In this document: positions 1,610 through 52,400 of the stretch, one piece after another
Layout: each line of letters opens with the position of its first letter
How positions within the stretch are numbered: the stretch's first letter is position 1
NCBI GenBank assembly: GCA_020629155.1
Contig: JAHDDW010000007.1
Location: 17,525 to 81,524, forward strand
DNA from: Acidimicrobiales bacterium
GTDB lineage: Bacteria > Actinomycetota > Acidimicrobiia > Acidimicrobiales > SZUA-35
Length of the DNA stretch: 64,000 nucleotides
Direction of reading: 5' to 3'
Program-made: the position numbers and the translations under genes
The notes under the pieces: generated by a model
Seen by the model: the letters and a program-made list of their open reading frames with translations, nothing else
What the model was told of the DNA's origin: nothing
The model's database searches: none

Positions 1610-3850
1610 TTGGCCATGAAAAGATTTGTCACAATTGTTTTAGCGCTGGTTTTTGTAGCAGCCACGCCACAAGCTATCTTTGCTAATGTTCGCATCGAAA
1701 ATTTTATGTCGACAGAGCTTTCCAACTCGTTAGACGGCACACGAGTATATGATTATGGCAGCGGCACTGATCATGAATTTACCACCACCGCAGATTTTGC
1801 TTCGGGCACGCTGAGCGACAACATTACCGCCCATGACGATGCGGCGGTTGTTAACCTTGACTGGTGGGATGAAGGCTGGACGAAACGGCAATGTTTCGAT
1901 ACAAAAACCTCTACCGCTTATGGGCAATACCCATTTCGTGCTGTCGTTGACACAACAGGGCTCGCCGACGACGACATTCGAGTTGTTGAAGCCTTGTTGC
2001 CTGGATCAAGCGCAACACCTCTGCCCCATTATACCGAAGGTGTTATCGGCACATCAGACACGGTCGTGTGGTTTCAAGGTGAAGGAACCATCGCAGGCAA
2101 AACCTATTGCGTGTATTTCAACAACAGCGACACCGCAGTAACAAGCACGTCTGATGAGATGGCACCGTTCACCTACACTAACGGCCAGTTCATAACCTAT
2201 TATGCTATGTTGCCTGCCTGGAATGGTGTTGGCGGCAACGGCGAGGTCGATGTTATTTCCTACATCAATGGCAATACGGTTTCAGATGGGACAACAACCG
2301 TCACACTCAATCAGGGCCAAATCCACACATTCACTGGCTTTAATCAAGACAGTTTTATCACCGCAACAGGCCCTATCGACGCTTCACATGACAGCAACGC
2401 CAAAGAAGCCTTGACTCCTGAAGGCTTCGCTGATAGCACCCATATTTTTCCAACCACTCGAAGCACGCAAAGCTACCATATTCGTTCACCTTATGGCGCA
2501 ACAACTATTGAGGCGGTGATTAACGGAACGGTTGTTTCGACTACCCCAATCAGTCCAGCAGATAGTGTTGTGAGCATTACCGAAAATGGGTCATCATATG
2601 TAACACTTCGCTCGACTGATGGCACCAAGTTTTTAGCAAGCCATGTCGCCACTGAGACCCATGACGCTTTTTCGGGTATTCCATGGTTCGGCGATGATCT
2701 CTATGGTGTTGCATCTGAAAACTTTCATATTGGTTCGCTAACGGCAACGACAGTTACACACACCAACCAAAACGGTGTCACGGGCACTGTTGGTATTCCT
2801 ACTGCGAGTCTTTACACAATCGCAGGTAACGGACCAGGCCGAGGTAACGGTATTGCTTACAGAATCGAACCTGGGGCGACAAAAATTGCGGCTATCCAGC
2901 AGCGCGACGATAACGGTGTGGAGTCCACTAGCTTTCTACCAGAGAGATTGCTTTCACAAACCTATCGCTTCCCTATCGACCATAATTATTGGACAATCGC
3001 CTGCCCGACGCCTGGCACACAAGTTTCTGTCAACGGCGGTGCTGCACAAAGCTGCAACGGCACCGTTGTCGGCAATCTCTGGTCGACGCTTGGCAACTAC
3101 AACGCTGGGCTTTTGGTCGAAGCTGACCGTCCAGTGTTTGTCTATTATGAATCTGACGCAAATAGTGACGAGCAAAATATTTATGGCGCTAAAGCTTCGA
3201 TTCCATTTACTGCTGGTGTCGGTATCGCTCCTCGCACTATAGAAATGTTTAACTCTTGCGGCAACTGGCTTTCGCCTAGCTTCGCGGTAAACGATGTGCT
3301 TGGATTAGCAAACATCGCTACGGACCTTTCAGCTGGCGGGTCATACACCTATCAGATATCATTCGACGGTGGGCCATTTACTGGCCCTGATGGCACCGCT
3401 GCAACGTCATATAGCGATGGCGACTATATACCGTATGTTTACGACGGCTCTTCTACTGCGCAAATTTTTGTGACGCTTTGTGGATCTGGTTCTGCAATTG
3501 AATCGGTTTCGTTTGAATGCAGTTTACAAGAAGTCTTTAGTGGCGATACTGTTGCGGTTGGAGGTGACGAAGCAGCGTTGCGTGTCTACCCAACGTTGAC
3601 AAATTCATCGCTCATCTATGAATCTTCAACCACGCCAGATAGCTACATTGTTTCTACCGATGTCGGAGCTGCGACACAAATCCAAGCCGCAACAGGAACA
3701 GTTACAAATCCTGCGCCACCATTTACGTCAGCGCCCTATAGCGTGCTTTTCAATTCAGTTTCTGCTCAAAACTCTACACTCACTGCAGCGGTGCGTGATG
3801 AAGGTAGCGTCTTGTTAGAAACTGTTGTTACCTTTGCAATTAACAGCTAA
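1610..3850 (+). CDS. Large secreted protein of unknown function
   Basis: 746-aa ORF with an N-terminal signal peptide (KRFVTIVLALVFVAATPQAIFA). Thr/Ser/Gly-rich and beta-rich composition; no motif I recognise. The start could be ATG at 1616. Confidence 0.7.
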   Translation: MAMKRFVTIVLALVFVAATPQAIFANVRIENFMSTELSNSLDGTRVYDYGSGTDHEFTTTADFASGTLSDNITAHDDAAVVNLDWWDEGWTKRQCFDTKTSTAYGQYPFRAVVDTTGLADDDIRVVEALLPGSSATPLPHYTEGVIGTSDTVVWFQGEGTIAGKTYCVYFNNSDTAVTSTSDEMAPFTYTNGQFITYYAMLPAWNGVGGNGEVDVISYINGNTVSDGTTTVTLNQGQIHTFTGFNQDSFITATGPIDASHDSNAKEALTPEGFADSTHIFPTTRSTQSYHIRSPYGATTIEAVINGTVVSTTPISPADSVVSITENGSSYVTLRSTDGTKFLASHVATETHDAFSGIPWFGDDLYGVASENFHIGSLTATTVTHTNQNGVTGTVGIPTASLYTIAGNGPGRGNGIAYRIEPGATKIAAIQQRDDNGVESTSFLPERLLSQTYRFPIDHNYWTIACPTPGTQVSVNGGAAQSCNGTVVGNLWSTLGNYNAGLLVEADRPVFVYYESDANSDEQNIYGAKASIPFTAGVGIAPRTIEMFNSCGNWLSPSFAVNDVLGLANIATDLSAGGSYTYQISFDGGPFTGPDGTAATSYSDGDYIPYVYDGSSTAQIFVTLCGSGSAIESVSFECSLQEVFSGDTVAVGGDEAALRVYPTLTNSSLIYESSTTPDSYIVSTDVGAATQIQAATGTVTNPAPPFTSAPYSVLFNSVSAQNSTLTAAVRDEGSVLLETVVTFAINS

Positions 3851-3940
3851 ATCATCTGCCGTTAAAAACGGCTGCAAAGCCAAGAACATATCCTATGCCC
3901 GGGTTCCTTTGATAGGCTTGTCTCCGACAAGGAGATGTTC

Positions 3941-5386
3941 ATGACAAAAGCTGACCTCGGGCTGATAGGCCTCGCCGTGATGGGGCAAAATCTGGCATTA
4001 AACTTCACAGATCAGGGAAACACTGTCGCTGTTTATAATCGCACAACATCTGTCACAACCGATTTTGTTGCTGGCCCTGGCGAAGGCCACAGCCTGATTG
4101 CTTGCGAAGACCTACAAACGTTCGTTTCGACTATTACACGTCCAAGACCGATACTGCTTATGGTTAAAGCTGGCCCTGTGGTCGATACTGTTATTGATCA
4201 GCTTCTCCCTTTCCTCGACGAAGGTGACATCATCATCGACGGCGGCAATTCGCTTTATACCGATTCGCAGCGACGTGTCGAAACGCTCGCAGATAAAGGC
4301 ATTCTTTTTGTCGGTTCTGGCGTTTCTGGTGGCGAAGAAGGCGCACGCACAGGTCCTTCTATCATGCCAGGCGGTAACGAGAACGCAGAAAAAACTGTTA
4401 TGCCGCTACTTAAATCAGTCGCTGCGGTTGCCAAAGACGGCAAACCTTGCTGCGAATGGTTAGGCCGTGGCGGCGCTGGGCATTACGTCAAGATGGTGCA
4501 CAACGGCATCGAATACGGCGATATGCAAGTACTTTCAGAGGCATACACAGTTATGAAAGCTATGGGCATGTCACATAGTGAAATGTCCGACACGTTTACC
4601 AGCTGGGATGAAGGGGTTCTCGACTCTTTTCTTGTCGAAATCACAGCCGATATTCTAAAAACGAACGATGATGATGGTTCTCCCCTTGTTGAGAAGATCC
4701 TCGACAAGGCTGGCCAGAAAGGCACCGGCAGGTGGACAGTTATTTCAGCGATGCAAGTTGGCCAGCCAGTCACGCTTGTAAGCGAAGCGGTAAGCGGACG
4801 CATTCTCTCATCGAAGAAGGAAGAACGTGGCCAGGCTGCTGCTATTTTAGAAGGCCCTAAGGCCATGATTGATCGTGACGCAATTTCTTTAGATGATCTG
4901 CGCGATTCTATCTATGGCGCGAAGATCGTCTCCTACGCACAAGGCTTTATGCTGCTTGAGGCTGCTTCGCAAGAATATGACTGGCATCTGAATCTTGGCG
5001 CGATTGCTGGTTTATGGCGCGAAGGTTGCATTATCAGAGCCGCTTTTTTAGACGATATCACCGCAGCGTTCGCTGCACAGCCTGACCTAAACTCGCTATT
5101 GCTCGACGCTGGTTTCGCGAGCCAGCTTAACGCTGCCCAGCAGGGTTGGCGCAACGTTGTCGCAACCGCAGTTGCAAATGGCATCGCTATTCCTGCATTT
5201 GCGTCGGGTCTGTCATTTTATGATGGGTATCGCACCGCAAACGGTTCGGCGAATATGATCCAAGCAATGCGAGATTATTTCGGCGCACACACCTATGAAC
5301 GAGTTGACAAACCTGCCGGCGAATGGTTCCATACTAACTGGACAGGCACAGGCGGATCAACCACTTCAGGCAGCTACAGCGCCTAG
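3941..5386 (+). CDS. gnd: 6-phosphogluconate dehydrogenase (decarboxylating)
   Basis: N-terminal Rossmann motif GLIGLAVMGQNLALN and full-length Gnd-like sequence. AAGGAG lies 6 nt before the ATG at 3941; the track ORF starts two codons earlier at 3935. Confidence 0.93.
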   Translation: MTKADLGLIGLAVMGQNLALNFTDQGNTVAVYNRTTSVTTDFVAGPGEGHSLIACEDLQTFVSTITRPRPILLMVKAGPVVDTVIDQLLPFLDEGDIIIDGGNSLYTDSQRRVETLADKGILFVGSGVSGGEEGARTGPSIMPGGNENAEKTVMPLLKSVAAVAKDGKPCCEWLGRGGAGHYVKMVHNGIEYGDMQVLSEAYTVMKAMGMSHSEMSDTFTSWDEGVLDSFLVEITADILKTNDDDGSPLVEKILDKAGQKGTGRWTVISAMQVGQPVTLVSEAVSGRILSSKKEERGQAAAILEGPKAMIDRDAISLDDLRDSIYGAKIVSYAQGFMLLEAASQEYDWHLNLGAIAGLWREGCIIRAAFLDDITAAFAAQPDLNSLLLDAGFASQLNAAQQGWRNVVATAVANGIAIPAFASGLSFYDGYRTANGSANMIQAMRDYFGAHTYERVDKPAGEWFHTNWTGTGGSTTSGSYSA

Positions 5387-5511
5387 CCAACCTAGCAAGT
5401 TAGCGGCCAGTTGTAGACCACTCTATGTAGTGTTGCTTCACAGTTGTCACAGATTGGTGAGTTGTTCTTCACAGATTTTGGTTTGTGGTTAGTTGTGTTA
5501 GGATTGGTTTC

Positions 5512-5739
5512 ATGATTCAGAAGCCGAAATACACTTTGAACGAGATGCGAGACATGAGCCTAGCGGAACGAAAAGCCAAGCTTCCTAAAGCTCGACTTAT
5601 TACTGATGAATCTGAACTATCAACTAAAGATAAGAACTGGGTTGATTCTTGTGTAAACAACTTTGTTGAGAAAGTCCAAAGAGCAGAAAAGGCAACTGAC
5701 CATGCTTACAAGATTTTTCAGGGTACCGACACAGAGTGA
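5512..5739 (+). CDS. Small hypothetical protein, antitoxin-position gene of a two-gene cassette
   Basis: 75 aa from the ATG at 5512 (AGGA 8 nt upstream). Charged and helical. Its stop overlaps the next ORF's start (GTGA). Confidence 0.45.
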   Translation: MIQKPKYTLNEMRDMSLAERKAKLPKARLITDESELSTKDKNWVDSCVNNFVEKVQRAEKATDHAYKIFQGTDTE

Positions 5740-6041
5740 TTCGCAAAGTTAAAGTTTCTTCAAATGCTTTCGATAAACTCGATGTCTTGCTGCCAGTGAA
5801 ACTCCCTGGGTTTCCTGAAGAATTCACGGTCCAAGATTTTATAGACCTGGAACTTCCTGAAATCATAAACAAATTTGCAACAGAGTTTGATGACTTGCCT
5901 GCATCTGAAACTCAATTACCCAGATACAGATATGCCATTTTTGCTGGACTCATCATCCCTAAGATAGTAGCCTTTGGATTTCTCCACGCTAACAACGAAA
6001 TCTCAGTTCTTGATCTAGAATTAAACCTCAACCAAGTGTGA
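5736..6041 (+). CDS. Small hypothetical protein, toxin-position gene (possibly RelE/ParE-superfamily-like)
   Basis: 101-aa ORF overlapping the upstream ORF by 4 nt. It shares the pattern DF-x3-(E/D)L-x2-I-x5-(F/W)D-x-(L/F)P with the degraded ORF at 12711-12966. Confidence 0.4.
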   Translation: MIRKVKVSSNAFDKLDVLLPVKLPGFPEEFTVQDFIDLELPEIINKFATEFDDLPASETQLPRYRYAIFAGLIIPKIVAFGFLHANNEISVLDLELNLNQV

Positions 6042-6077
6042 AGCAACACCAAAACCGGTACCCCTTTAACTGTTAAG

Positions 6078-7253
6078 TCACCTTCCAGTTGTAGACCAAT
6101 GCCATGGCTCGCTAGGCAAGTTTTTCAGACCGTAATTAGCGGCGTTTGCTTTTAACCAACGGAAACCTGAACTGCTGCTATTTAGTGAAGACCCATTTTG
6201 CGTAAAATCGATAGCTAAACCTGTCTCATGTTGCGAGGACCCAGGACGTGCCGTTGGAGGACGGCAACTGCTCGACCGTTTCTGGTAAATATTGTATTGC
6301 GTGTTACCTCCGCAATTTTGAATCCGAAGCTCGATCTGTCTTTGATGTGACCGCAACCCCCAACCACCGAATTTGATACCATCAGCCGCTGCATCATCAA
6401 GAAGGTTCTGAATATCTGTCGCTATCGAAGCCCTAACCTCTATTGTGTCGCCTGTAGCGGTTTTTACCGTCGCAACCTCAATTGTGCCACCAGCTGCAGT
6501 ATTTACGTCTTTTGTACCAGGCCCGATAAGCTCCTCGATATCGTCATCAAGCTCGACTTCATCATTAAGTGCTTCTATCTGAGCTATCAACTCTCGAAGC
6601 TCTTCTTTAACTTTTTTTGCTTCTTCTTGACGCTCTTCTTCTTCCTGCTCGAAAGCGACAAGCTGCTTTTCATATTCAGCTTTAGCTGTTTCGGCATTGA
6701 GCTCGTTGCCTAACGCAACTCTTTTGTTTTGTTTTGCAATTTGATACTGCTCTATTTTATTAAAGTCGCTATCTGTCAACTCATCCAAAAAATATTCACT
6801 TCGCTGGTACGCCAGATTTTCACTCATCCCGTTCTCTTCATCAACCGCAATCGGGTCTAGCGGCGAAATTTGTGATGAAATATACCCATCAATAAGATTT
6901 GAAGCTAACCCTTCTTCAAGGTCTGCGATTTCCACATCTAATGCAGCAATCTCTTCTTTTGCTACTGCTATAGTACTATCTGCGTCAACAATGCCTTGTT
7001 CTGCGTTACCAATTGATTGTTTCGTCGCAGAAATAGAACGCTGCACATCTTTAATCGACTGATTTATCTGCTTTTCACGTTCGAGGGCGTCACGAACTGC
7101 TTCTTGTAACGTCTCTGCCTCAGATGCTTCTTGCGCCGCATACGTTCCAGACTGTGCCAACTGAGAAACAAACACCAGCGTCGCTACAGCAATAATAAAC
7201 CGGGCAACCATTTTTTTGCTTTGCAACACCACAACCCACCTCCGCCGATCCAT
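6078..7253 (-). CDS. Secreted coiled-coil protein with C-terminal M15B (VanY-like) D-Ala-D-Ala carboxypeptidase domain
   Basis: Signal/anchor segment FIIAVATLVFVSQLAQS, then a long Glu/Lys-rich coiled coil. C-terminal motifs: GWGLRSHQRQ, HETGLAIDF, EPWHWS. The true start may be GTG 7232 or ATG 7211. Confidence 0.8.
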   Translation of the reverse strand: MDRRRWVVVLQSKKMVARFIIAVATLVFVSQLAQSGTYAAQEASEAETLQEAVRDALEREKQINQSIKDVQRSISATKQSIGNAEQGIVDADSTIAVAKEEIAALDVEIADLEEGLASNLIDGYISSQISPLDPIAVDEENGMSENLAYQRSEYFLDELTDSDFNKIEQYQIAKQNKRVALGNELNAETAKAEYEKQLVAFEQEEEERQEEAKKVKEELRELIAQIEALNDEVELDDDIEELIGPGTKDVNTAAGGTIEVATVKTATGDTIEVRASIATDIQNLLDDAAADGIKFGGWGLRSHQRQIELRIQNCGGNTQYNIYQKRSSSCRPPTARPGSSQHETGLAIDFTQNGSSLNSSSSGFRWLKANAANYGLKNLPSEPWHWSTTGR

Positions 7254-7406: not shown

Positions 7407-8255
7407 GTGCCTTTCTCTTTCTCATTAGTCATGTTGCAATGGTCTGTCGGTGGACTATTTTTTCTGTGGGTTACAACTCGCCTGCGTGTCGTTGGCTTGG
7501 GATACGGCCAAATGATGCGCATTACCTACGCTTTAATGGCCGCCGCAGCGTTTAGCATAGGGCTCGCCTGGAATGCAAGCCCGCTACAAAATGCAGCCGC
7601 ATGCGTTACCGCGATAGCTTCTGTTGGCGCGTTAACCCAATCAGTTCGCTATCGGTCTGCTGGCGTTTCAGGACAAACTGCAATCGCAACGCAACGCAGC
7701 GAACGAGTCGCCGCCATGACAGGCATCGATCGCGCCCCGCAACAAAAAGACGCCACAGCAACCGAGTTTGACCCCAACTATGATTTGATAGCCCCAGCAG
7801 CAGGACTACTTGGCGTTGTCGCTGTGGGTGTAGAAGCTGGCGGCCCAGTTTGGCTCCACCTTGCACGACTTATCGTCGGGGCTTTATTCCTCGGCGTTGT
7901 CAGCGACGCTATGCTACTTGGCCATTGGTATCTTGTTCAACCAGGGTTGGGCCGCAAACCATTACGCGACCTTGTTTTGTGGTCTTCGGTTTTATTGCTG
8001 CCCGAAGTAGCACTTTTGCTTATCCCAACTGGCATGTTTTCGGTTTTTTCTGGAGCTATCAATGATGGCTACGGCGGGATTTTAGGCTGGTTTTGGATTG
8101 CTTCTGCTTTGACTACTGCTGGCCTCTTTTTTATGTCTTGGGTAGCGTTGAAAGAAAAACAATACTCTGCTGTCATGGCTGCAACAGGGCTGTTGTATCT
8201 AGCCATTTTAACGGCTTTCTCAATTGACCTTGTCGCTCGCGCTTTACTTCGCTAA
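7407..8255 (+). CDS. Integral membrane protein, unknown function
   Basis: 282-aa ORF with multiple hydrophobic segments; no recognisable motif. Confidence 0.6.
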   Translation: MPFSFSLVMLQWSVGGLFFLWVTTRLRVVGLGYGQMMRITYALMAAAAFSIGLAWNASPLQNAAACVTAIASVGALTQSVRYRSAGVSGQTAIATQRSERVAAMTGIDRAPQQKDATATEFDPNYDLIAPAAGLLGVVAVGVEAGGPVWLHLARLIVGALFLGVVSDAMLLGHWYLVQPGLGRKPLRDLVLWSSVLLLPEVALLLIPTGMFSVFSGAINDGYGGILGWFWIASALTTAGLFFMSWVALKEKQYSAVMAATGLLYLAILTAFSIDLVARALLR

Positions 8256-28924: not shown

Positions 28925-29115
28925 AACAGCTACCTCCATTGGTGGCAAAAATACGTAGCACTTCTATGGCTGTTTGTTGCGCAGTTTCGTTACATCTCTG
29001 CGACGAACAGACCGTTATAGCATAAACCTCAGAAAACAAAAAACTCGCACCCGAAGAAGGAAATTTCAAGTCTGCGAATACAACCCCAATCAAGCTGCTT
29101 GTATAGTTGGCCTAG

Positions 29116-29247
29116 CAGGAGCAGCATTATGAGACTGGCGCTACAAATCCAGTCTATGGGGAAATAATTGAAAACTCAGAACTATCTCTAGAAGAAACTG
29201 TCAAAGAAATTCTAAAGATCATCGGGAGACTTAAAAGAAAAAGCTGA
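29116..29247 (+). pseudogene. Start-less C-terminal gene remnant (P-loop kinase-like tail, e.g. APS-kinase-like)
   Basis: The frame opens right after a TAG and reads QEQHYETGATNPVYGEIIENSELSLEETVKEILKIIGRLKRKS-stop. No start codon. It lies at the edge of the Rpn islet. Confidence 0.25.
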
Positions 29248-29304
29248 AGCTGAATTTTTCGCAGAAAAGCCTCATTCTACACCTCATCACTGCTCAACCG
29301 CCTG

Positions 29305-30225
29305 CTAGAGTTGCTCGATTTGTTGTGGCGTTAATTTAGTGTAAAGACTGATTTGTGACGCAGGCACCCCAGCCTGTTTCATCTGCGTAGCGATACTTTG
29401 TCGTTCTTCCTGTTGCGCTTCTTCTCTGCCTTGTTGTCTGTATCTCTCTTTAAGCGTTGGCATTGCAATTCCTTCGTCTACTAGTTTTTTGGTTAATGTT
29501 TCGTAGGTTTCTGTTTCAAGGTCATGCTCATGCAGATATTTTAAGATCGCATAGAGCAGTTCAGTATCCTCAGTAACCCGGCTTAAATTTATCATTAAAC
29601 CTGCAAGACGTGCAATGGCTTTGTCAGATGCAGGTGGCTTGATAGCTTTCAAAAGTTCAAAGACAAGCGTATTCTCAAGAGAAGCTTTGTCAAAAGATAT
29701 GTCGTGCACATTGACAAGCAGATACTCGAAATTTGGGATGTAACGTTTAAGGTCAAAAGGGATTGTTTCCAACAGTTGGTGCATATTTGTTGCTGAATTC
29801 CAGTGTTCGTTGCCGTGATAGAAAACGAGGGGCAAAATTAGTTTAAAAGGTTCTTTTCCATCATACTTTTCCCAAATCCTTACGATGTAGCGCAGTAGCT
29901 GAAAAATGACTGTCTTGTCAGTTGAGCTTTTATGTTCAAACAGCAAATAGACATACGCTGGATTGTCGCTATCAAGAAGTCTTGTCTTATAGAGTAGGTC
30001 TGAATGCGAACGAATAAGGTCAGGAGAAACAAATGAGTCTTTCTGAGGCGCCAGCGTGCCGAGGTCAAGCAAGTTCACAACTTCTTGTGGAAAGAAATTG
30101 ACGACAAAATCAGCAGCCAGTCGAGGGTTACCGAGCCATTTTTTGAAGAATGCGTCATGCGGTCGATAAAGAGTATTCTTTAGATCATCAGTTGACTTGT
30201 CTTTGTTGACAGGTTCTTGTCTCAT
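29305..30225 (-). CDS. Rpn/YhgA-like PD-(D/E)XK recombination-promoting nuclease (putative transposase family)
   Basis: HDAFFKKWLGNPRLAADFVVNFFP, SDLLYKTRL, YVYLLFEHKSS and FQLLRYIVRIW match the YhgA-like layout (D...ExK). AT-rich islet. Confidence 0.8.
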   Translation of the reverse strand: MRQEPVNKDKSTDDLKNTLYRPHDAFFKKWLGNPRLAADFVVNFFPQEVVNLLDLGTLAPQKDSFVSPDLIRSHSDLLYKTRLLDSDNPAYVYLLFEHKSSTDKTVIFQLLRYIVRIWEKYDGKEPFKLILPLVFYHGNEHWNSATNMHQLLETIPFDLKRYIPNFEYLLVNVHDISFDKASLENTLVFELLKAIKPPASDKAIARLAGLMINLSRVTEDTELLYAILKYLHEHDLETETYETLTKKLVDEGIAMPTLKERYRQQGREEAQQEERQSIATQMKQAGVPASQISLYTKLTPQQIEQL

Positions 30226-30752
30226 AAGAGGAATACTCGAAATGACGCACCCAGTTTAAATGCAGCGTATGCTTTAGCAGCACAGTTCTCTATGAAACGG
30301 AACGTCGCTCCATAGGATTCCATCAAGAATTTACCTTCTGAGCCTAACGAGATGGTTGATAACCACAGCCGAGCATTTCCTCCAGAGAGTTCAACGCTTT
30401 CGTAGATTGCGTTTCGAGCTAGAGAAAAATTTTCATGCCAAGTAGTATCAGTTTCTTGAAGCCAGTGTGAAGAGTTCGAGATCTGAGAAATGAACTGACG
30501 TTCTTCATCTAAAAATTTCTTGTCTCTTGCCCCATAAAAATCGCTATATACCTGATCGGTGAAAGACACAAGTTCGTGCGAAACGACGTCTGGCTTTAAC
30601 GACCAGACGAGACGCCTACCATCTTCTGCCAAGTTATACGCTTCGAGGCAGAAGTGAGACGAAACAACATCAAGAACTTCCTCAGTCGAGACACCCTCGG
30701 GTACGTCCAGTTTAGCTTCTGCAATAAATCCGATATTCAAATAAACACCCAT
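30222..30752 (-). CDS. Hypothetical protein translationally coupled to the Rpn-like nuclease
   Basis: 176-aa ORF. Its TGA overlaps the Rpn ATG (ATGA at 30222-30225). No recognisable motif. Confidence 0.55.
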   Translation of the reverse strand: MGVYLNIGFIAEAKLDVPEGVSTEEVLDVVSSHFCLEAYNLAEDGRRLVWSLKPDVVSHELVSFTDQVYSDFYGARDKKFLDEERQFISQISNSSHWLQETDTTWHENFSLARNAIYESVELSGGNARLWLSTISLGSEGKFLMESYGATFRFIENCAAKAYAAFKLGASFRVFLL

Positions 30753-40594: not shown

Positions 40595-41911
40595 TTACTT
40601 TAGCAGTTCATGAGCTAGTTCATCAAGCCTAAGTGAGTTGCTTCCTTTAACAAGAATCGCAGCATCGTCGCTAAGTTCTTCAAGCACAGCAAGCGCAGAG
40701 GCTTTATCTTTGACATGCTCAGCAGCATCGCCGTATGCTGGGCAGTTAACAGCGATGACACGCACGCCTGTATCAGCAGCTTCTTCAGCAATCGAGCTGT
40801 GCTCTTGAGGACCTTCATCTCCAAGTTCAGCCATCAGTCCCAGCACAGCAACTTTCGTTGAGGCATCACTCGCTTGCAAGCTTTTTAAAGCAGCCCGTAC
40901 AGAAACTGGGTTAGCGTTATAGGCGTCATTTATAATTAGCTGACCTTTTGCATTGTTTCGCACATCCATGCGCGCTTTCGAGGGCACTGCCCGCGCTATG
41001 CCTGCAATAGCTTTCTGCAAGTCAACTCCTACTGCTATGGAAGCACCAAGCGCTGCCAGCGCGTTCGGCACCATATGTTCACCCTTGAACGACAATGGCA
41101 CTTCATAGGATTCACCGTTATAGAAGAGTGTGAACCGAACAGACAAGTCACCATCGACTACGATGTTTCCGGCTCGCAAATCGCCTCTACCTATACCATA
41201 GGTCAGCACAGATGCCTGCGTTCGTTTTTCCATAGCTATAACATGCGGATCGTCCGCATTTAGAACAACAGTTCCACTGGCGTCAATTGCCTCTGCCAAT
41301 TCACCTTTCCCCTGAGCGACCGCTTCGATCGAGCCGAACAGTTCTGTGTGCGCCGATGCAACCTTGGTGATCACTCCAACAGTTGGTTTCACATACTCGC
41401 ATAAGTGTTGAATATGCCCAACCCCACGTGCACCCATTTCAGAGACAAGCACTTTCGTGTCTTCTGGCGCTCGCAGTAGCGTTAGCGGAACACCAATTTC
41501 ATTGTTAAATGATCCTTCATTTGCATATGTCGCAATGTGAGACGAGCATGCGGCATAGATAAGATCTTTTGTTGTTGTTTTTCCAACACTTCCAGTGACG
41601 CCAATCAATTGCCCGTCGAAACGACTTCTTGCAAGCGCCCCTAGACTCTCTAGCGCTTGTGATGTGTCTTCAACCATAACGGCGCTTGCTTCAACATCTG
41701 ATTCTGGTTGTTTAGCGGTTAAATATAGCGCTGCACCTTTCTCAACTGCCTTGACAATAAATTCATGACCATCTCGTTCGGCAACAATCGGCACAAATAG
41801 TTCACCTGGAGCTGTCGATCGGCTATCTATAGAGACACCTTCAATAGTCGCATCTGGACCTATCAGTTCACTTTGTAAATATTCGGCTATTTCAAATGCA
41901 GTAAGTTTCAC
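40595..41911 (-). CDS. murF: UDP-N-acetylmuramoyl-tripeptide--D-alanyl-D-alanine ligase
   Basis: Mur ligase layout with the P-loop GVTGSVGKTTTKD and a MurF-like N-terminus (VSIDSRSTAPGELFVPI). Confidence 0.88.
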   Translation of the reverse strand: MKLTAFEIAEYLQSELIGPDATIEGVSIDSRSTAPGELFVPIVAERDGHEFIVKAVEKGAALYLTAKQPESDVEASAVMVEDTSQALESLGALARSRFDGQLIGVTGSVGKTTTKDLIYAACSSHIATYANEGSFNNEIGVPLTLLRAPEDTKVLVSEMGARGVGHIQHLCEYVKPTVGVITKVASAHTELFGSIEAVAQGKGELAEAIDASGTVVLNADDPHVIAMEKRTQASVLTYGIGRGDLRAGNIVVDGDLSVRFTLFYNGESYEVPLSFKGEHMVPNALAALGASIAVGVDLQKAIAGIARAVPSKARMDVRNNAKGQLIINDAYNANPVSVRAALKSLQASDASTKVAVLGLMAELGDEGPQEHSSIAEEAADTGVRVIAVNCPAYGDAAEHVKDKASALAVLEELSDDAAILVKGSNSLRLDELAHELLK

Positions 41912-41990
41912 GTTATAGATCCTATACCTTCAAGCAGGGCTCACATGTTCAATTGTGACCTCTTCCAACTTATTGCCTACCCTTTAACAG

Positions 41991-42385
41991 ATGAACGAAC
42001 CAGTGATTACAAAAGAATTAGGAAAAATTTGCGGACGAGATGCTATCCATCTAGATCAAATAAAATTTGAAGCAACTCATTCAGTTAAGCTTGACGGAGT
42101 CTTCAACGGAGCCTTATGTGAAAATATAATTTCCCAAGACTGGGTGCCATACGAATTACAATTTCATGGGATACTTGAATTCAAGATGACTGAACTGGGT
42201 TTTTCTCATCTCCAGAGCCCTCAGCGAGTTTCCTAAGAATACTTGACTCAAGCAAACTGGCTGAATTCAGAAAACAGGATCATTCATCAAAGATCAGAGA
42301 CACACATCAACATTTCATAGTTGCGACCTATGACGATATAATTGAAGTAATTGCTGATGGGTTCGACTTGTCGTTAGATGAGTAG
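41991..42385 (+). pseudogene. Small AT-rich ORF split by a -1 frame change at a GGGTTTT(T) run
   Basis: Frame A (41991-42236) ends ...EFKMTELGFSHLQSPQRVS-stop. The -1 frame is open from 42194 to the TAG at 42383-42385 and reads ...RILDSSKLAEFRKQDHSSKIRDTHQHFIVATYDDIIEVIADGFDLSLDE. Confidence 0.45.
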
Positions 42386-50855: not shown

Positions 50856-51635
50856 TCAACTTTGAAAGTTTTGGCCGTGTTGGCTGGCTTGACTCGTTGG
50901 AGTTGTCGTTACTGATTTAGGAAGTATTAGCCGTCTCGGATGGTCTGGTAAAGGTGGGTTCGTTGTTGGCGGCTTCTCGGGCGGCGCTGTTTGTGTGACG
51001 GGTGGCGGTGGGAGCGTTTGCTGTACCGTGGGAGATGACTCTTGTTTTTCTGGTTCTTGATTGTTGTTTTCCGATAGATAGAAAAGAGGTGATTTATCGC
51101 CGCCGATTTGGGTTGCGAGCATTTGGTAGTACCTAATCAGGCCATGTTTAGGATCTGCTTTCAGGGCGTAACAGCGATCAGGGTTCGCTAGCTTATTTAT
51201 AGCTTTTTTTGCGAAATTCACTCCTGAGAAAAGTTTAGAACCTTGGTAGGTAACAAAGTTTCCTATTGAATGAGTTGGCTGTATCCCATGTTTGCGGAAA
51301 GAGAACGATTTGAAGTAAGTGGCTGTTCTGCTGATTAATGATGGGACAAGAGCCACTTGGCTTACCGCTAAAATAATAGCTATAGGTAGCAGCGCTATGT
51401 TTATTGCTGGGAATAAAGCAGCGTAGAGAGCTGTATGCGCGGCGATTGTTGTGCCTGCATGAACTTTTTTTACGACGAAACCCGCTTTGCCGTTAGTGAC
51501 AAGTTCACCGCTTTCTAACAGTTGGGCAGCAGAAAGAAATTTTTGGAAGAATGTGGGGGCTTTAGTCAATCTAGCTATTTCTAGATTGTGATGGTATCTG
51601 GACCTGAAATCAGTCCATTCTATAATTTCCGCCAT
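50856..51635 (-). CDS. Hypothetical membrane protein with Pro/Thr-rich C-terminal tail
   Basis: 259 aa with a hydrophobic stretch AALFPAINIALLPIAIILAVSQVALVPSLI and a tail PPPPVTQTAPPEKPPTTNPPLPDHP. AT-rich. Confidence 0.55.
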   Translation of the reverse strand: MAEIIEWTDFRSRYHHNLEIARLTKAPTFFQKFLSAAQLLESGELVTNGKAGFVVKKVHAGTTIAAHTALYAALFPAINIALLPIAIILAVSQVALVPSLISRTATYFKSFSFRKHGIQPTHSIGNFVTYQGSKLFSGVNFAKKAINKLANPDRCYALKADPKHGLIRYYQMLATQIGGDKSPLFYLSENNNQEPEKQESSPTVQQTLPPPPVTQTAPPEKPPTTNPPLPDHPRRLILPKSVTTTPTSQASQHGQNFQS

Positions 51636-51665
51636 ACCTGCCAGTTTAACGCAAAAATTATGTCA

Positions 51666-52400
51666 TTAACGTTGCCGCACTAGAAGGTGGCGAGCCATTT
51701 CTTTAGCTCGTGTCTCCCAGCTTTCGTATTGTCCAAGTCTTTCTAAGATGTCTTTTAAAATTATTTTGTTCGGAGTATCTTTTTTAGTCTCGTTTTTCAG
51801 TTCTTCTTCAATTTCCCACACGTTCTCGTCGCTGGCTAGTCGGGTTAGCCAATAATTCCAAGTTCCATTTGATTTAAGGTTAGTTAGATCAATAATTGGT
51901 TCGGGTGCAACTGGTTGCACATGGAAGCCATATGACATACTACCTGGTCCTACTGCTACGATGTCAGAAGCAACGTTTCCACGCATGTTTACCTTACTGT
52001 TCTCAGGCACAGAGAAGCCATGTGCGACGCCGCCTTCTCTGCCTATCACACCTTCTGCCGTGTTTCCTTCGATGTTTCCAATTTGGACTATCACACCGTT
52101 TCCTTCGATCAGCAGTCGTTCTGCTTTCTCGGGATCACCTATTACTAATTTGTTTAATAAGTTGGATAGTTTTTCTAAGTCAAATTGTTCAAGTGAATCT
52201 TTTTTGTCCAGTAAATTTTTGATTTCTTGTTCATCTTCTGTCCCCCGAAACTTTTTGAAAATTGAACCGCAAAATTTTTGTATAGCCTTTTGGCCAGCTT
52301 CGGTTAAGGTTCTGGTAGCAACAATTTTGGTTACGTACAAGCCGTAACTCAAGCTACTTGGAGCAAATTCAGCCAGTGTTTTTATTATTTCTATTTTCAT
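51666..52400 (-). CDS. Hypothetical protein (helical ends, Gly/Asn/Val-rich beta-repeat-like centre)
   Basis: 244 aa from ATG 52400 (GGAAGG upstream). The central segment is IEGNGVIVQIGNIEGNTAEGVIGREGGVAHGFSVPENSKVNMRGNV. 30 nt upstream of 50856-51635. Confidence 0.55.
   Translation of the reverse strand: MKIEIIKTLAEFAPSSLSYGLYVTKIVATRTLTEAGQKAIQKFCGSIFKKFRGTEDEQEIKNLLDKKDSLEQFDLEKLSNLLNKLVIGDPEKAERLLIEGNGVIVQIGNIEGNTAEGVIGREGGVAHGFSVPENSKVNMRGNVASDIVAVGPGSMSYGFHVQPVAPEPIIDLTNLKSNGTWNYWLTRLASDENVWEIEEELKNETKKDTPNKIILKDILERLGQYESWETRAKEMARHLLVRQR

What the first reader, a model, noticed from the sequence alone, without database searches (positions are those of the whole stretch)
5400..6098. 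Integrase-less ~0.7-kb cassette inserted in the 3' end of the M15 peptidase gene, with the gene's last 7 codons duplicated in different codons
CCAGTTGTAGACCA occurs perfectly at 5407-5420 and 6085-6098.

- **Right copy.** On the minus strand it is the real end of the peptidase gene: ...CCA TGG CAT TGG TCT ACA ACT GGA AGG TGA = P W H W S T T G R stop.
- **Left copy.** It continues as TGG TCT ACA ACT GGC CGC TAA, the same W S T T G R stop spelled with different Gly, Arg and stop codons.
- **Boundary.** Similarity ends exactly at the Trp codon. Upstream of the left copy the frame reads ...QHYIE instead of ...SEPWH.

This is the attL/attR-type signature of an element that integrates into the 3' end of a gene and supplies a replacement gene end, displacing the native one.

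The ~680 bp in between is AT-richer by eye. It has perfect 13-bp inverted repeats near both ends (GTGTTGCTTCACA at 5430-5442; reverse complement at 6037-6049). It carries only two small overlapping ORFs and no recombinase. So it is either a cis-mobilisable element moved in trans or the stump of a larger island.
Basis: partly seen in the sequence, partly recalled or inferred. Interest (0 to 1): 0.7.

Follow-up and report, generated by a model that had tools for sequence, protein, structure and literature searches.

The report
Integrase-less toxin–antitoxin islet at gene end
A 0.68-kb piece of foreign DNA carrying a likely toxin–antitoxin gene pair sits at the very end of a cell-wall peptidase gene in an uncultured Acidimicrobiia bacterium, flanked by two copies of the gene's last codons; it is a small, recombinase-less example of a known kind of integrated mobile element.

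Summary
CCAGTTGTAGACCA occurs only at 5407-5420 and 6085-6098. Both copies encode W-S-T-T-G-R-stop on the minus strand, with different Gly, Arg and stop codons. The 664 bp between them has lower GC (0.40 against 0.47) and a 17-nt subterminal inverted repeat.

It carries two overlapping ORFs and no recombinase. ORF2 belongs to an unannotated family of about 100-aa proteins. A confident model (pLDDT 91.5) is closest to RelE/ParE/HigB toxins. ORF1 matches the small upstream partner found with every homologue examined, so the cargo is probably a new type II toxin-antitoxin pair.

Elsewhere this module lies:
- directly behind a tyrosine integrase (L194);
- inside a tRNA-Ala-flanked island (L170);
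- in a 1.45-kb cassette flanked by copies of an acyl-CoA dehydrogenase gene's 3' end (L164/L165).

A second peptidase locus (L012) shows the same duplicated end around a different toxin-antitoxin pair.

Best reading: the integrase-less remnant of a site-specific integrative element, like a cis-mobilisable element (CIME), kept by its addiction module. No close relative exists in the collections searched, so no empty site could be found, and mobility is inferred. It is a new member of a known kind, of moderate interest.

The parts
3935..5386 (+). gnd (6-phosphogluconate dehydrogenase). This is the left chromosomal flank. Its stop codon lies 13 nt from the stop codon of the displaced peptidase end.
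   Evidence: Pfam 6PGD E=3e-121 and NAD_binding_2; sequence.
5397..5420 (-). Displaced copy of the peptidase 3' end, the distal att-like repeat. It reads TGG TCT ACA ACT GGC CGC TAA plus CTT. Only the last 7 codons are present.
   Evidence: 24-nt direct repeat at 83% with 6075-6098. Translation is ...KQHYIE-WSTTGR*. Its Gly, Arg and stop codons are the commonest or near-commonest in the window's genes.
5407..5420 (.). Left copy of the perfectly identical 14-nt core, the putative crossover region.
   Evidence: Only two occurrences in the window, expected 0.01.
5421..6074 (.). Inserted cassette, low in GC and unique in sequence.
   Evidence: GC 0.40 against 0.467. No other copy in the window or in 190 loci. 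No match in plasmids or phages.
5429..5474 (+). Repeat motifs upstream of ORF1. The left arm of the 17-nt inverted repeat is at 5430-5446. A direct 15-nt copy, AGTTGTTCTTCACAG, lies 31 nt further on at 5460-5474. These are candidate protein-binding sites: an operator or integrase arm-type sites (inference).
   Evidence: the repeat finder I1 and D9; shuffle test.
5512..5739 (+). ORF1, 75 aa, a putative antitoxin-like partner. An AGGA motif lies 8 nt upstream of the ATG.
   Evidence: No family hit and an orphan in the word-index search. It aligns with the small ORFs that precede ORF2 homologues, sharing the motif T..E(L/M)..MS..ER...(I/V)TD.
5736..6041 (+). ORF2, 101 aa, a RelE/ParE-fold protein and putative toxin. 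Its GTG start overlaps the ORF1 stop (GTGA).
   Evidence: 21 distant homologues by exhaustive phmmer and 83 by profile search. AF2 model pLDDT 91.5, pTM 0.83. Top Foldseek PDB hits are HigB2 5jaa, ParE1 8c24, ParE2 7r5a and HigB 6af4, with prob up to 0.99 and TM 0.55-0.63.
6033..6049 (+). Right arm of the 17-nt inverted repeat. It overlaps the ORF2 stop codon.
   Evidence: the repeat finder I1.
6075..6098 (-). Functional 3' end of the peptidase gene, the proximal att-like repeat. It reads TGG TCT ACA ACT GGA AGG TGA plus CTT. Under the integration model, the tail after the core was supplied by the element.
   Evidence: AGG makes up 3.7% of Arg codons in the window's genes.
6078..7253 (-). Target gene: a 391-aa secreted coiled-coil protein with a C-terminal VanY / M15B D-Ala-D-Ala carboxypeptidase domain.
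   Evidence: Pfam VanY E=7e-12. The C-terminal EPWHWSTTGR* is conserved in relatives.

Best explanation
The 678-bp unit is the integrase-less remnant of a small site-specific integrative element, in practice a cis-mobilisable element (CIME).

**Integration (inferred).** The element integrated by recombination between its attP and the last codons of the VanY-type peptidase gene. Its attP carried a 24-nt mimic of the gene's end: the 14-nt core TGGTCTACAACTGG, then codons for Gly-Arg-stop, then CTT. The integrated state therefore has:
- the gene body joined to the element's tail (6075-6098), so the protein is unchanged;
- the native tail pushed 678 bp downstream (5397-5420), next to gnd.

**Loss of the recombination genes (inferred).** The recombination genes were later deleted, or the element was always served in trans. 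What remains is the two att-like repeats, short arms with repeated motifs, and one operon.

**Cargo.** ORF1 (75 aa) and ORF2 (101 aa, RelE/ParE fold) most likely form a type II toxin-antitoxin pair. An addiction effect of that pair would explain why this piece survived.

**Shown:** the repeats, their coding equivalence, the cargo's fold and conserved two-gene architecture, and the cargo's association with an integrase and with att-flanked islands elsewhere.

**Inferred:** the integration event, the direction (which tail is native), the former presence of an integrase, toxin-antitoxin activity, and any present-day mobility.
For: 1. **Repeat.** The 14-mer is exact and unique to these two places. 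The copies stay similar beyond it in a way that preserves Gly-Arg-stop and the 3 nt after the stop. With uniform codons the chance of Arg followed by stop is about 0.004 (my calculation). This rules out a plain target-site duplication.
2. **Target.** EPWHWSTTGR-stop is the conserved C-terminus of this peptidase in all 80 genome loci. The left copy is therefore a real gene-end fragment.
3. **Recurrence at the peptidase.** In L012 a second WSTTGN-stop lies 1763 bp downstream of the gene. It brackets a DUF5615/DUF433 pair.
4. **Recurrence with the same cargo at another gene.** In L163-L166 the ORF1/ORF2 homologues plus an HTH_31 gene form a 1448-bp cassette.
   - The cassette is bracketed by 81-93 nt copies of an acyl-CoA dehydrogenase 3' end at 95% identity.
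   - All three differences within the coding part are synonymous.
   - A third, 32-nt copy lies alongside.
5. **Cargo linked to integrative elements.** In L194 the order is HTH_17, tyrosine integrase, ORF1', ORF2', with the integrase stop overlapping the ORF1' start. In L170 the module lies in a 7.7-kb island with a TrwC relaxase, flanked by 47-nt tRNA-Ala 3' repeats.
6. **Cargo is toxin-antitoxin-like.**
   - The two-gene architecture is conserved: a 54-89 aa ORF followed by one of about 100 aa. The stop and start overlap by 4 nt in most contexts and abut in the rest, across about 10 different neighbourhoods.
   - The confident model is closest to RelE/ParE/HigB toxins.
7. **Composition.** The insert has low GC.
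8. **Assembly.** The arrangement is present in a second assembly.
9. **Definition.** CIME is defined in PMC5704250.
Against: - No empty site and no excised form was seen. The closest peptidase relatives are only 33-37% identical over the full length, and none has gnd alongside.
- No integrase that targets this peptidase end was found in 160 peptidase loci. The three integrases present sit next to tRNA genes (L059, L061) or a tRNA-like contig end (L004).
- No tyrosine recombinase was detected in the 64-kb window.
- Codon evidence for direction is ambiguous. The right tail's AGG and GGA are rare in the genome. But the peptidase gene itself uses AGG in 3 of 20 Arg codons and CGC in 0 of 20.
- The ORF2-toxin link rests on fold only: Foldseek E 0.03-0.1, with no Pfam, NCBIfam, PDB-sequence or hhalign signal.
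- Six other contexts of the module show no gene-end duplication.
- The low GC is only about 2 SD below the window mean.
Confidence: 0.65

Rival explanations
1. Imported allele. The peptidase gene (or its 3' part) and the toxin-antitoxin module arrived together from a related, more AT-rich Acidimicrobiia genome. They entered by homologous recombination anchored in or upstream of the peptidase gene. The far end was joined at the resident gene's last codons, and the left copy is the stump of the replaced resident gene. No dedicated recombinase acted in this genome.
For: The peptidase's own Arg codon use (CGC 0/20, AGG 3/20) departs from the window's genes (CGC 26%, AGG 3.7%). Its GC3 (0.38) resembles the cassette (0.36-0.39) rather than gnd (0.49). 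The left copy uses genome-typical codons.
Against: - To join at the 14-mer, the donor fragment must already have carried a peptidase-end sequence on the far side of the cassette. That only moves the att-type duplication into the donor.
- The AT-rich part of the gene is the Glu/Lys-rich coiled coil, so composition may simply reflect amino-acid content.
- It does not explain the three stacked copies at the acyl-CoA dehydrogenase end.
Confidence: 0.12
2. Paralogue remnant. Two tandem peptidase paralogues once stood here. The downstream one was deleted or overwritten by the toxin-antitoxin genes except for its last 21 nt.
For: Tandem VanY paralogues with similar C-termini are common in relatives, for example L059, L062, L071, L083 and L097.
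Against: - Tandem paralogues in relatives usually differ in the tail (WSTNGN, WSVDGN, WSIDEG...). A perfect 14-mer would be unexpected.
- The deletion would have to stop exactly at the Trp codon.
- It does not explain the same architecture around the same cargo at an unrelated gene with three copies.
- It does not explain the cargo's link to an integrase.
Confidence: 0.08
3. Transposon-type insertion. A non-autonomous element with inverted repeats (MITE-like or casposon-like) inserted and made a 14-bp target-site duplication.
For: There is a perfect 14-bp direct repeat and a 17-nt inverted repeat near both ends. Casposons are known, from my own knowledge, to make 14-15 bp duplications at gene 3' ends.
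Against: - Similarity continues past the 14-mer with different bases that keep Gly-Arg-stop and CTT. A target duplication cannot produce that.
- The inverted repeats are subterminal and asymmetric, 9 nt and 35 nt from the core.
- There is no other copy in the window, the loci, plasmids or phages.
- Hits to the 17-mer in viral contigs are one unrelated family matching only 20-23 nt.
Confidence: 0.03
4. Autonomous cassette system. Toxin-antitoxin mini-cassettes that carry a mimic of a host gene's end are a mobile unit in their own right. They are inserted and stacked by a recombinase encoded elsewhere, in an integron-like way, and are not decay products of larger islands.
For: - The cassettes are compact and intact, with no pseudogene debris in the window (91 nt and 37 nt of non-coding arms).
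- Gene-end copies are stacked in L164, including two adjacent copies with nothing between them.
- L006 has a tandem gene end without cargo, where the syntenic L019 has one.
- Each case carries different toxin-antitoxin cargo.
Against: - Only three or four cases were found in 1.3 Mb of loci.
- There is no common repeat structure among the cassettes.
- The core does not fit the integron attC core GTTRRRY (sequence).
- The direct integrase-module fusion in L194 gives a simpler origin by deletion.
- The divergence of L164 after position 6047 could be an assembly switch at a repeat.
Confidence: 0.1

Closest known systems
Cis-mobilisable elements (CIMEs) and tandem accretion of ICESt1/ICESt3-type elements at the 3' end of fda in Streptococcus thermophilus
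   Same: - Integrated at the 3' end of a protein-coding gene.
- Flanked by direct att repeats that contain the gene's end.
- No integrase or transfer genes.
- Older copies are pushed outward by later insertions, as in L164.

The definition is in PMC5704250. The fda details are from my own knowledge and from the title of Pavlovic et al. 2004 in that reference list.
   Different: - Much smaller: 0.68 kb against several kb.
- A single operon as cargo.
- A different phylum (Actinomycetota, Acidimicrobiia) and a different target (VanY peptidase).
- No cognate integrase-bearing element for this site has been identified.
- Mobilisation in trans is untested.
tRNA-gene genomic islands flanked by a duplicated tRNA 3' end
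   Same: The topology is the same: the element supplies a replacement 3' end and displaces the native one. Examples occur in the same group of organisms:
- L170: tRNA-Ala, 47-nt repeats, carrying the same module.
- L036/L061: tRNA-Lys.

   Different: The target is a protein-coding gene. The replacement end is therefore constrained at the amino-acid level and differs by synonymous codons.
Type II toxin-antitoxin systems of the RelE/ParE/HigB superfamily
   Same: - Two small co-directional genes with overlapping stop and start.
- The downstream protein has a beta-alpha-alpha-beta-beta-beta fold closest to HigB2, ParE1 and ParE2.
- It is scattered in variable neighbourhoods and on integrated elements.
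   Different: - No sequence-level match to any Pfam, NCBIfam or PADLOC toxin or antitoxin family.
- The partner has no recognisable DNA-binding domain.
- Toxicity and neutralisation are untested.
Integron gene cassettes
   Same: Short, promoter-poor cassettes, often toxin-antitoxin pairs, stacked at one site and separated by repeats.
   Different: - No attC-type imperfect palindrome with a GTTRRRY core.
- No intI, attI or Pc nearby.
- The repeat is a host gene end, and it differs from site to site.
IMEX elements (integrative elements exploiting XerCD at dif)
   Same: Integrase-less elements inserted by a recombinase supplied in trans.
   Different: The target is not a dif site. Two unrelated coding 3' ends are used by cassettes with the same cargo (window; L164).

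Membership tests
Cis-mobilisable element (CIME) | [quoted passage not shown] | tested here: met
   24-nt repeat with a perfect 14-nt core at 5397-5420 / 6075-6098. Both copies encode WSTTGR-stop.
Cis-mobilisable element (CIME) | Lacks its own integration and transfer genes. | tested here: met
   Only ORF1 and ORF2 are present. Neither hits a recombinase or relaxase family in Pfam, PHROGs, PADLOC or NCBIfam.
Cis-mobilisable element (CIME) | Derived by decay from an integrase-bearing ICE or IME. | tested here: inconclusive
   Homologous modules sit directly behind a tyrosine integrase in L194 and inside a relaxase-bearing tRNA-Ala island in L170. No integrase remnant lies in the 91 nt upstream of ORF1, and no parent element for this site was found.
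Cis-mobilisable element (CIME) | Can be excised or mobilised by a related element's integrase acting on its att sites. | not testable with these tools
   Needs read-level junction data or an experiment.
Type II toxin-antitoxin, RelE/ParE superfamily | Two adjacent small genes in one operon, conserved as a pair. | tested here: met
   GTGA overlap in the window. The pair is conserved in every context examined.
Type II toxin-antitoxin, RelE/ParE superfamily | The toxin has the RelE/ParE fold. | tested here: inconclusive
   The AF2 model (pLDDT 91.5) has HigB2, ParE1 and ParE2 as its top PDB matches, with prob 0.99 and TM 0.55-0.63 but E only 0.03-0.1.
Type II toxin-antitoxin, RelE/ParE superfamily | Sequence membership in a described toxin family (ParE_toxin, HigB, RelE and others). 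| tested here: not met
   No Pfam, NCBIfam or PADLOC hit for the window protein, and no toxin-family hit in any of the 22 members of alignment A1. There is no PDB sequence hit, and hhalign against a ParE gave probability 0.7%.
Type II toxin-antitoxin, RelE/ParE superfamily | The toxin inhibits growth and the partner neutralises it. | not testable with these tools
   Needs an experiment.
Integron cassette | An attC site with a GTTRRRY core, and a nearby intI/attI. | tested here: not met
   The core reads GTTGTAG, where a T occupies a purine position. No tyrosine recombinase was detected in the window by motif, phmmer or a 3-sequence HMM.
Transposon or casposon with target-site duplication | An exact duplication bounded directly by terminal inverted repeats. 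| tested here: not met
   Similarity continues beyond the exact 14-mer with synonymous changes. The inverted repeats lie 9 and 35 nt inside.

The most novel reading that the evidence does not exclude
Acidimicrobiia may harbour a cassette system in which very small toxin-antitoxin units each carry a mimic of a host gene's last codons as their attachment site. A recombinase encoded elsewhere would insert and stack them at the 3' ends of conserved genes. This would work like an integron but use gene ends instead of attC/attI. The window's 678-bp unit would then be a complete mobile unit, not a decay product.
Probability: 0.1. Interest if true: 0.75.

Novelty: new member of a known kind. Interest (0 to 1): 0.4.

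Why it matters
Three points make it worth recording.
1. It is a clean, minimal example of how integrative elements protect their target gene by bringing a replacement end. Here that end is visible as synonymous recoding of seven codons, in a little-studied uncultured lineage (Acidimicrobiia).
2. It uncovers an unannotated two-gene family: at least 83 members, no Pfam or NCBIfam model, and a confident RelE/ParE-like fold. The family travels on integrated elements and is a good candidate for a new toxin-antitoxin family.
3. Together with L012 and L164, it suggests that the 3' ends of conserved protein-coding genes are recurrent landing pads where toxin-antitoxin cassettes pile up in these genomes. 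That could be used to find their integrases and to mark strain-variable islets.

None of this overturns current understanding.

Tried and rejected
**Empty site.**
- The peptidase was searched against one genome per species and against JGI metagenomes. The best full-length identities were 33-37%.
- gnd is never adjacent to the peptidase.
- Exact-protein look-ups found only one further contig, with the same arrangement.
- The test is therefore not possible with these collections.

**Other copies of the cassette or its ends.**
- None in the window or in 190 loci.
- None in plasmids or phages.
- The 17-mer arm matched 11 viral contigs, but these are one unrelated family sharing only 20-23 nt.
- The ORF2 family is absent from viral contigs.

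**RNA genes and signals.** No tRNA or tmRNA in the window. No Rfam hit in 4800-6700. No sigma-70-like promoter or intrinsic terminator.

**An integrase targeting the peptidase end.**
- Regex, phmmer and HMM screens of all loci found three tyrosine integrases.
- L059 sits next to tRNA-Leu. L061 sits next to tRNA-Lys.
- The L004 integrase lies 90 nt from a short peptidase gene. It also abuts a tRNA-like contig end, and its 'NSTTGN-stop' matches the gene end in only 11 of 18 nt. I judged this not to be evidence.

**A shared end motif between the window and L012.** AAGCA(A/G)CAC before the displaced copy, and GTTGTAGA, were seen by eye. Scanning all loci for the window core with up to 2 mismatches returned only genuine gene ends. 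I treated the motif as chance.

**Gene-end duplication around the module.** None was found in L167, L169, L170 (local), L172, L174 or L176.

**Codon usage as a pointer to the native tail.** It gave conflicting signals.

**A first IR shuffle test was invalid.** It counted short palindromes and was redone with separated arms.
Full report
**1. The observation**

The 14-mer CCAGTTGTAGACCA occurs at 5407-5420 and 6085-6098 and nowhere else in the window, even with one mismatch allowed. Shuffles expect 0.01. A 14-nt direct repeat arose in 22 of 5000 shuffles of the surrounding 1.6 kb.

The repeat extends to 24 nt at 83% identity, 5397-5420 and 6075-6098. Read on the minus strand:
- The right copy is ...CCA TGG CAT TGG TCT ACA ACT GGA AGG TGA. 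This is the true end of a 391-aa ORF (6078-7253) whose C-terminal third is a VanY / M15B D-Ala-D-Ala carboxypeptidase domain.
- The left copy is ...ATA GAG TGG TCT ACA ACT GGC CGC TAA. Its last seven codons encode the same W-S-T-T-G-R-stop, and the three bases after the stop (CTT) also match. Upstream it reads KQHYIE instead of SEPWH.

The stop of the left copy lies 13 nt from the stop of the convergent gnd gene at 3935-5386.

The inverted repeat is real and a little longer than reported: 17 nt at 94%, 5430-5446 and 6033-6049. A perfect separated IR of 13 nt or more arose in 17 of 5000 shuffles and in 4 of 181 real tiles of the window. A direct copy of the left arm lies 31 nt further in, at 5460-5474.

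The insert has GC 0.402 against 0.467 for the window, the lowest 1.4% of equal-sized windows. The Glu/Lys-rich coiled-coil part of the peptidase gene is equally AT-rich.

An independent Logan assembly (SRR14415274, a contig seen in 3 samples) has the identical arrangement, so this is not an assembly artefact.

**2. Organism and target**

All relatives of the peptidase are from Acidimicrobiia / Acidimicrobiales MAGs. The C-terminus EPWHWSTTG(R)-stop is conserved in all 80 genome loci fetched. The left copy is therefore a true fragment of such a gene's end and not a chance ORF tail.

No close relative exists in either large collection. The best full-length identity is 33-37%, and none of the 160 loci has gnd or the cassette next to the peptidase. 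This is the main gap in the argument.

**3. The cargo**

ORF1 (5512-5739, 75 aa) and ORF2 (5736-6041, 101 aa, start overlapping the ORF1 stop as GTGA) hit nothing in Pfam, PHROGs, PADLOC or NCBIfam. Both are orphans in the word-indexed search of 5.8 billion proteins.

More sensitive searches found a family:
- An exhaustive phmmer of ORF2 found 21 distant homologues of about 100 aa, at 26-42% identity.
- A profile search then found 83 members, all unnamed and without Pfam domains.

With a 64-sequence alignment, AlphaFold2 gives a confident model (pLDDT 91.5, pTM 0.83) with strand-helix-helix-helix-three-strand topology. Its best PDB matches are HigB2 (5jaa), ParE1 of M. tuberculosis (8c24), ParE2 of V. 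cholerae (7r5a), pneumococcal HigB (6af4) and BrnT. Probability is up to 0.99 and TM 0.55-0.63, but E is only 0.03-0.7. There is no sequence-level support.

In every genomic context examined, the homologue is preceded by a 54-89 aa ORF whose stop overlaps or abuts its start, by 4 nt in most cases. ORF1 aligns with those partners through the motif T..E(L/M)..MS..ER...(I/V)TD.

A conserved two-gene unit with a RelE/ParE-fold second gene, scattered through unrelated neighbourhoods, is the profile of a type II toxin-antitoxin pair. That assignment is an inference from fold and architecture.

**4. Is the duplicated gene end a recurring signature?**

Yes, in two ways.

*Same target, different cargo.* In L012 the peptidase ends TGG AGT ACG ACA GGC AGT TGA. 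A second copy, TGG AGC ACG ACA GGG AAC TGA, lies 1763 bp downstream on the same strand. Between them are a DUF5615 (PIN-like) and DUF433 pair, and beyond them PIN and Phd/ParE genes. L006 has two copies of the end in tandem with nothing between, where the syntenic L019 has one. That case could also be simple slippage.

*Same cargo, different target.* In L163-L166 (three Acidimicrobiales MAGs and one ENA metagenome contig) the ORF1/ORF2 homologues plus an HTH_31 gene form a 1448-bp cassette.
- It lies downstream of an acyl-CoA dehydrogenase gene whose last 81-93 nt (...DIFEGTEQIQQLVIARALSGMRIE-stop) are repeated at the far side at 95% identity.
- All three differences within the coding part are synonymous.
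- A third, 32-nt copy lies next to it.
- L164 departs from L165 and L163 exactly at the end of the 81-nt copy and continues into a HigA-like HTH gene. This is either a further stacked cassette or an assembly switch at the repeat.

A screen of all 1.3 Mb of loci for duplicated ORF tails returned these cases and little else that is credible. The signature is therefore specific but not frequent. Six other contexts of the module show no such duplication.

**5. Link to recombinases**

- No tyrosine recombinase is detectable in the window.
- The integrases near peptidase genes in L059 and L061 lie next to tRNA-Leu and tRNA-Lys. The L004 integrase abuts a tRNA-like contig end.
- The module itself is tied to integrative elements. 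In L194 the order is HTH_17 (Xis-like), tyrosine integrase, ORF1 homologue, ORF2 homologue, all co-directional. The integrase stop overlaps the ORF1' start.
- In L170 the module lies inside a 7.7-kb island with HTH_17, a TrwC relaxase, a DDE gene and a TIR protein. The island is bounded by 47-nt repeats of the tRNA-Ala 3' end.
- Deleting everything to the left of ORF1' in an L194-type element, up to its distal att site, would give the layout seen in the window.

**6. Mechanism**

A plain target-site duplication is excluded. The copies remain related beyond the exact 14-mer through different bases that keep Gly-Arg-stop and CTT.

The only economical explanation is recombination between the resident gene end and an incoming DNA that already carried a homologous gene end. 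That is attP x attB integration.
- Its topology fixes the tail after the right core (GGA AGG TGA) as element-derived.
- It fixes the tail after the left core (GGC CGC TAA) as native.
- The left tail uses the commonest or near-commonest Gly, Arg and stop codons of the window's genes. The right tail uses rare ones: AGG 3.7%, GGA 14%.
- That fits the model, but the peptidase gene itself uses AGG in 3 of 20 Arg codons and never CGC. Codon evidence is therefore not decisive. It leaves room for the rival in which the peptidase allele came in together with the cassette.

The repeated TTCACAG-type motifs, two direct copies by the left core and one inverted by the right core, could be arm-type recombinase sites or the operator of the operon. 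This was not tested.

**7. Comparison with known systems**

[quoted passage not shown] The classic examples at the 3' end of fda in Streptococcus thermophilus are from my own knowledge.
- Two defining features are met here: att-type repeats and no recombination genes.
- Origin by decay is plausible but unproven.
- Mobilisation in trans cannot be tested here.

It is not an integron cassette: there is no GTTRRRY core and no intI. It is not an IMEX: the target is not dif and differs between cases. It is not a transposon or casposon.

**8. Verdict**

I estimate about 0.65 that it is an integrase-less att-flanked remnant of a site-specific integrative element carrying a toxin-antitoxin-like module.

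It is a new member of a known kind. The new elements are the target (VanY peptidase end), the host lineage, the very small size and an undescribed RelE/ParE-fold two-gene family. Interest is moderate at 0.4.

The more novel reading is a dedicated, integron-like system of toxin-antitoxin cassettes that mimic gene ends. It is not excluded, but I give it about 0.1.

Noticed in passing
L164 4492-6058 (also L163, L165, L166): Three copies (32, 93 and 81+ nt) of the 3' end of an acyl-CoA dehydrogenase gene bracket a 1448-bp cassette. The cassette holds the ORF1/ORF2 homologues and an HTH_31 gene. L164 diverges from L165 and L163 exactly after position 6047 into a HigA-like HTH gene and then the contig end. 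This is either a second stacked cassette or an assembly switch at the repeat.
   Followed up: partly
L012 4934-7783: Downstream of the peptidase lies a run of toxin-antitoxin genes. DUF5615 + DUF433 sit between the two copies of the gene end, followed by a PIN fragment and a Phd/ParE pair. This looks like a toxin-antitoxin islet built at this gene end.
   Followed up: partly
L006 2513-2566 versus L019 about 5000-5030: L006 has the peptidase end in tandem: TGGTCGACGACCGG ccgctga ctggtcgacgac TGGTCGACGACCGG tcggtga. It fills the whole intergenic spacer with no cargo, whereas the syntenic L019 has a single end. It could be a relic of a lost cassette or slippage on the GTCGAC-containing unit.
   Followed up: partly
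L170 701-8481: A 7.7-kb island flanked by 47-nt repeats of the tRNA-Ala 3' end (94%). It carries HTH_17, a MarR-like gene, a TrwC relaxase, a DDE_3 gene, the ORF1/ORF2-type module and a TIR-domain protein. No integrase is called in it.
   Followed up: partly
L194 92-2013: A compact co-directional block of HTH_17, a tyrosine integrase and the two-gene module. Weak imperfect repeats (GCACGTAG.TG) lie at 7-26 and 2007-2026, 2000 nt apart. This may be a complete 2-kb integrative element, but the left edge is at the contig end.
   Followed up: partly
L036 5139-5185 / 8021-8067; L061 5113-6590: An ordinary tRNA-Lys island. In L036 a 47-nt repeat of the tRNA-Lys 3' end flanks about 2.9 kb. In L061 a tyrosine integrase follows the tRNA.
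   Followed up: partly
window 6078-7253: The peptidase gene's Arg codon use (CGC 0/20, AGG 3/20) differs from the window's other genes (CGC 26%, AGG 3.7%). Its GC3 is 0.38 against 0.49 for gnd. The gene itself may be of foreign origin, or the bias may come from its coiled-coil composition.
   Followed up: partly
window about 29050-30450, 41500-42100, 51150-52300: Other stretches with GC at or below 0.42, as low as or lower than the cassette. Their content was not examined.
   Followed up: no
L143 13877-14093; L145 9165-9597; L144 5541-5715: Tandem repeats spaced 216 nt (174 nt in L144) give identical 12-aa ORF tails: CLVGLSDAHPTR-stop, and TKPSPEPKWPRS-stop in L144. Their nature is unknown.
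   Followed up: no
L020, L032, L041, L050, L053, L059, L062, L064, L067, L071, L072, L074, L083, L097: Two to four tandem VanY-type peptidase paralogues occur in the same orientation. Their tails are similar but distinct (WSTTG., WSTNG., WSVDGN, WSI.EG...).
   Followed up: no
L164 about 4702-4730, 5879-5893, 6155-6180: The motif GTAGGGA recurs in pairs. It lies upstream of the ORF1 homologue, upstream of the HTH_31 gene, and in the sequence after the 81-nt gene-end copy. It may be an operator of the HTH regulators. This was seen by eye only.
   Followed up: no
L004 1161-4905: A short (186-aa) VanY peptidase preceded by a 570-aa protein that looks multi-membrane-spanning by eye. A tyrosine integrase (3520-4725, minus strand) follows 90 nt after its stop, and a tRNA-like T-arm lies at the contig end. 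This peptidase may itself be cargo of an integrated element.
   Followed up: partly
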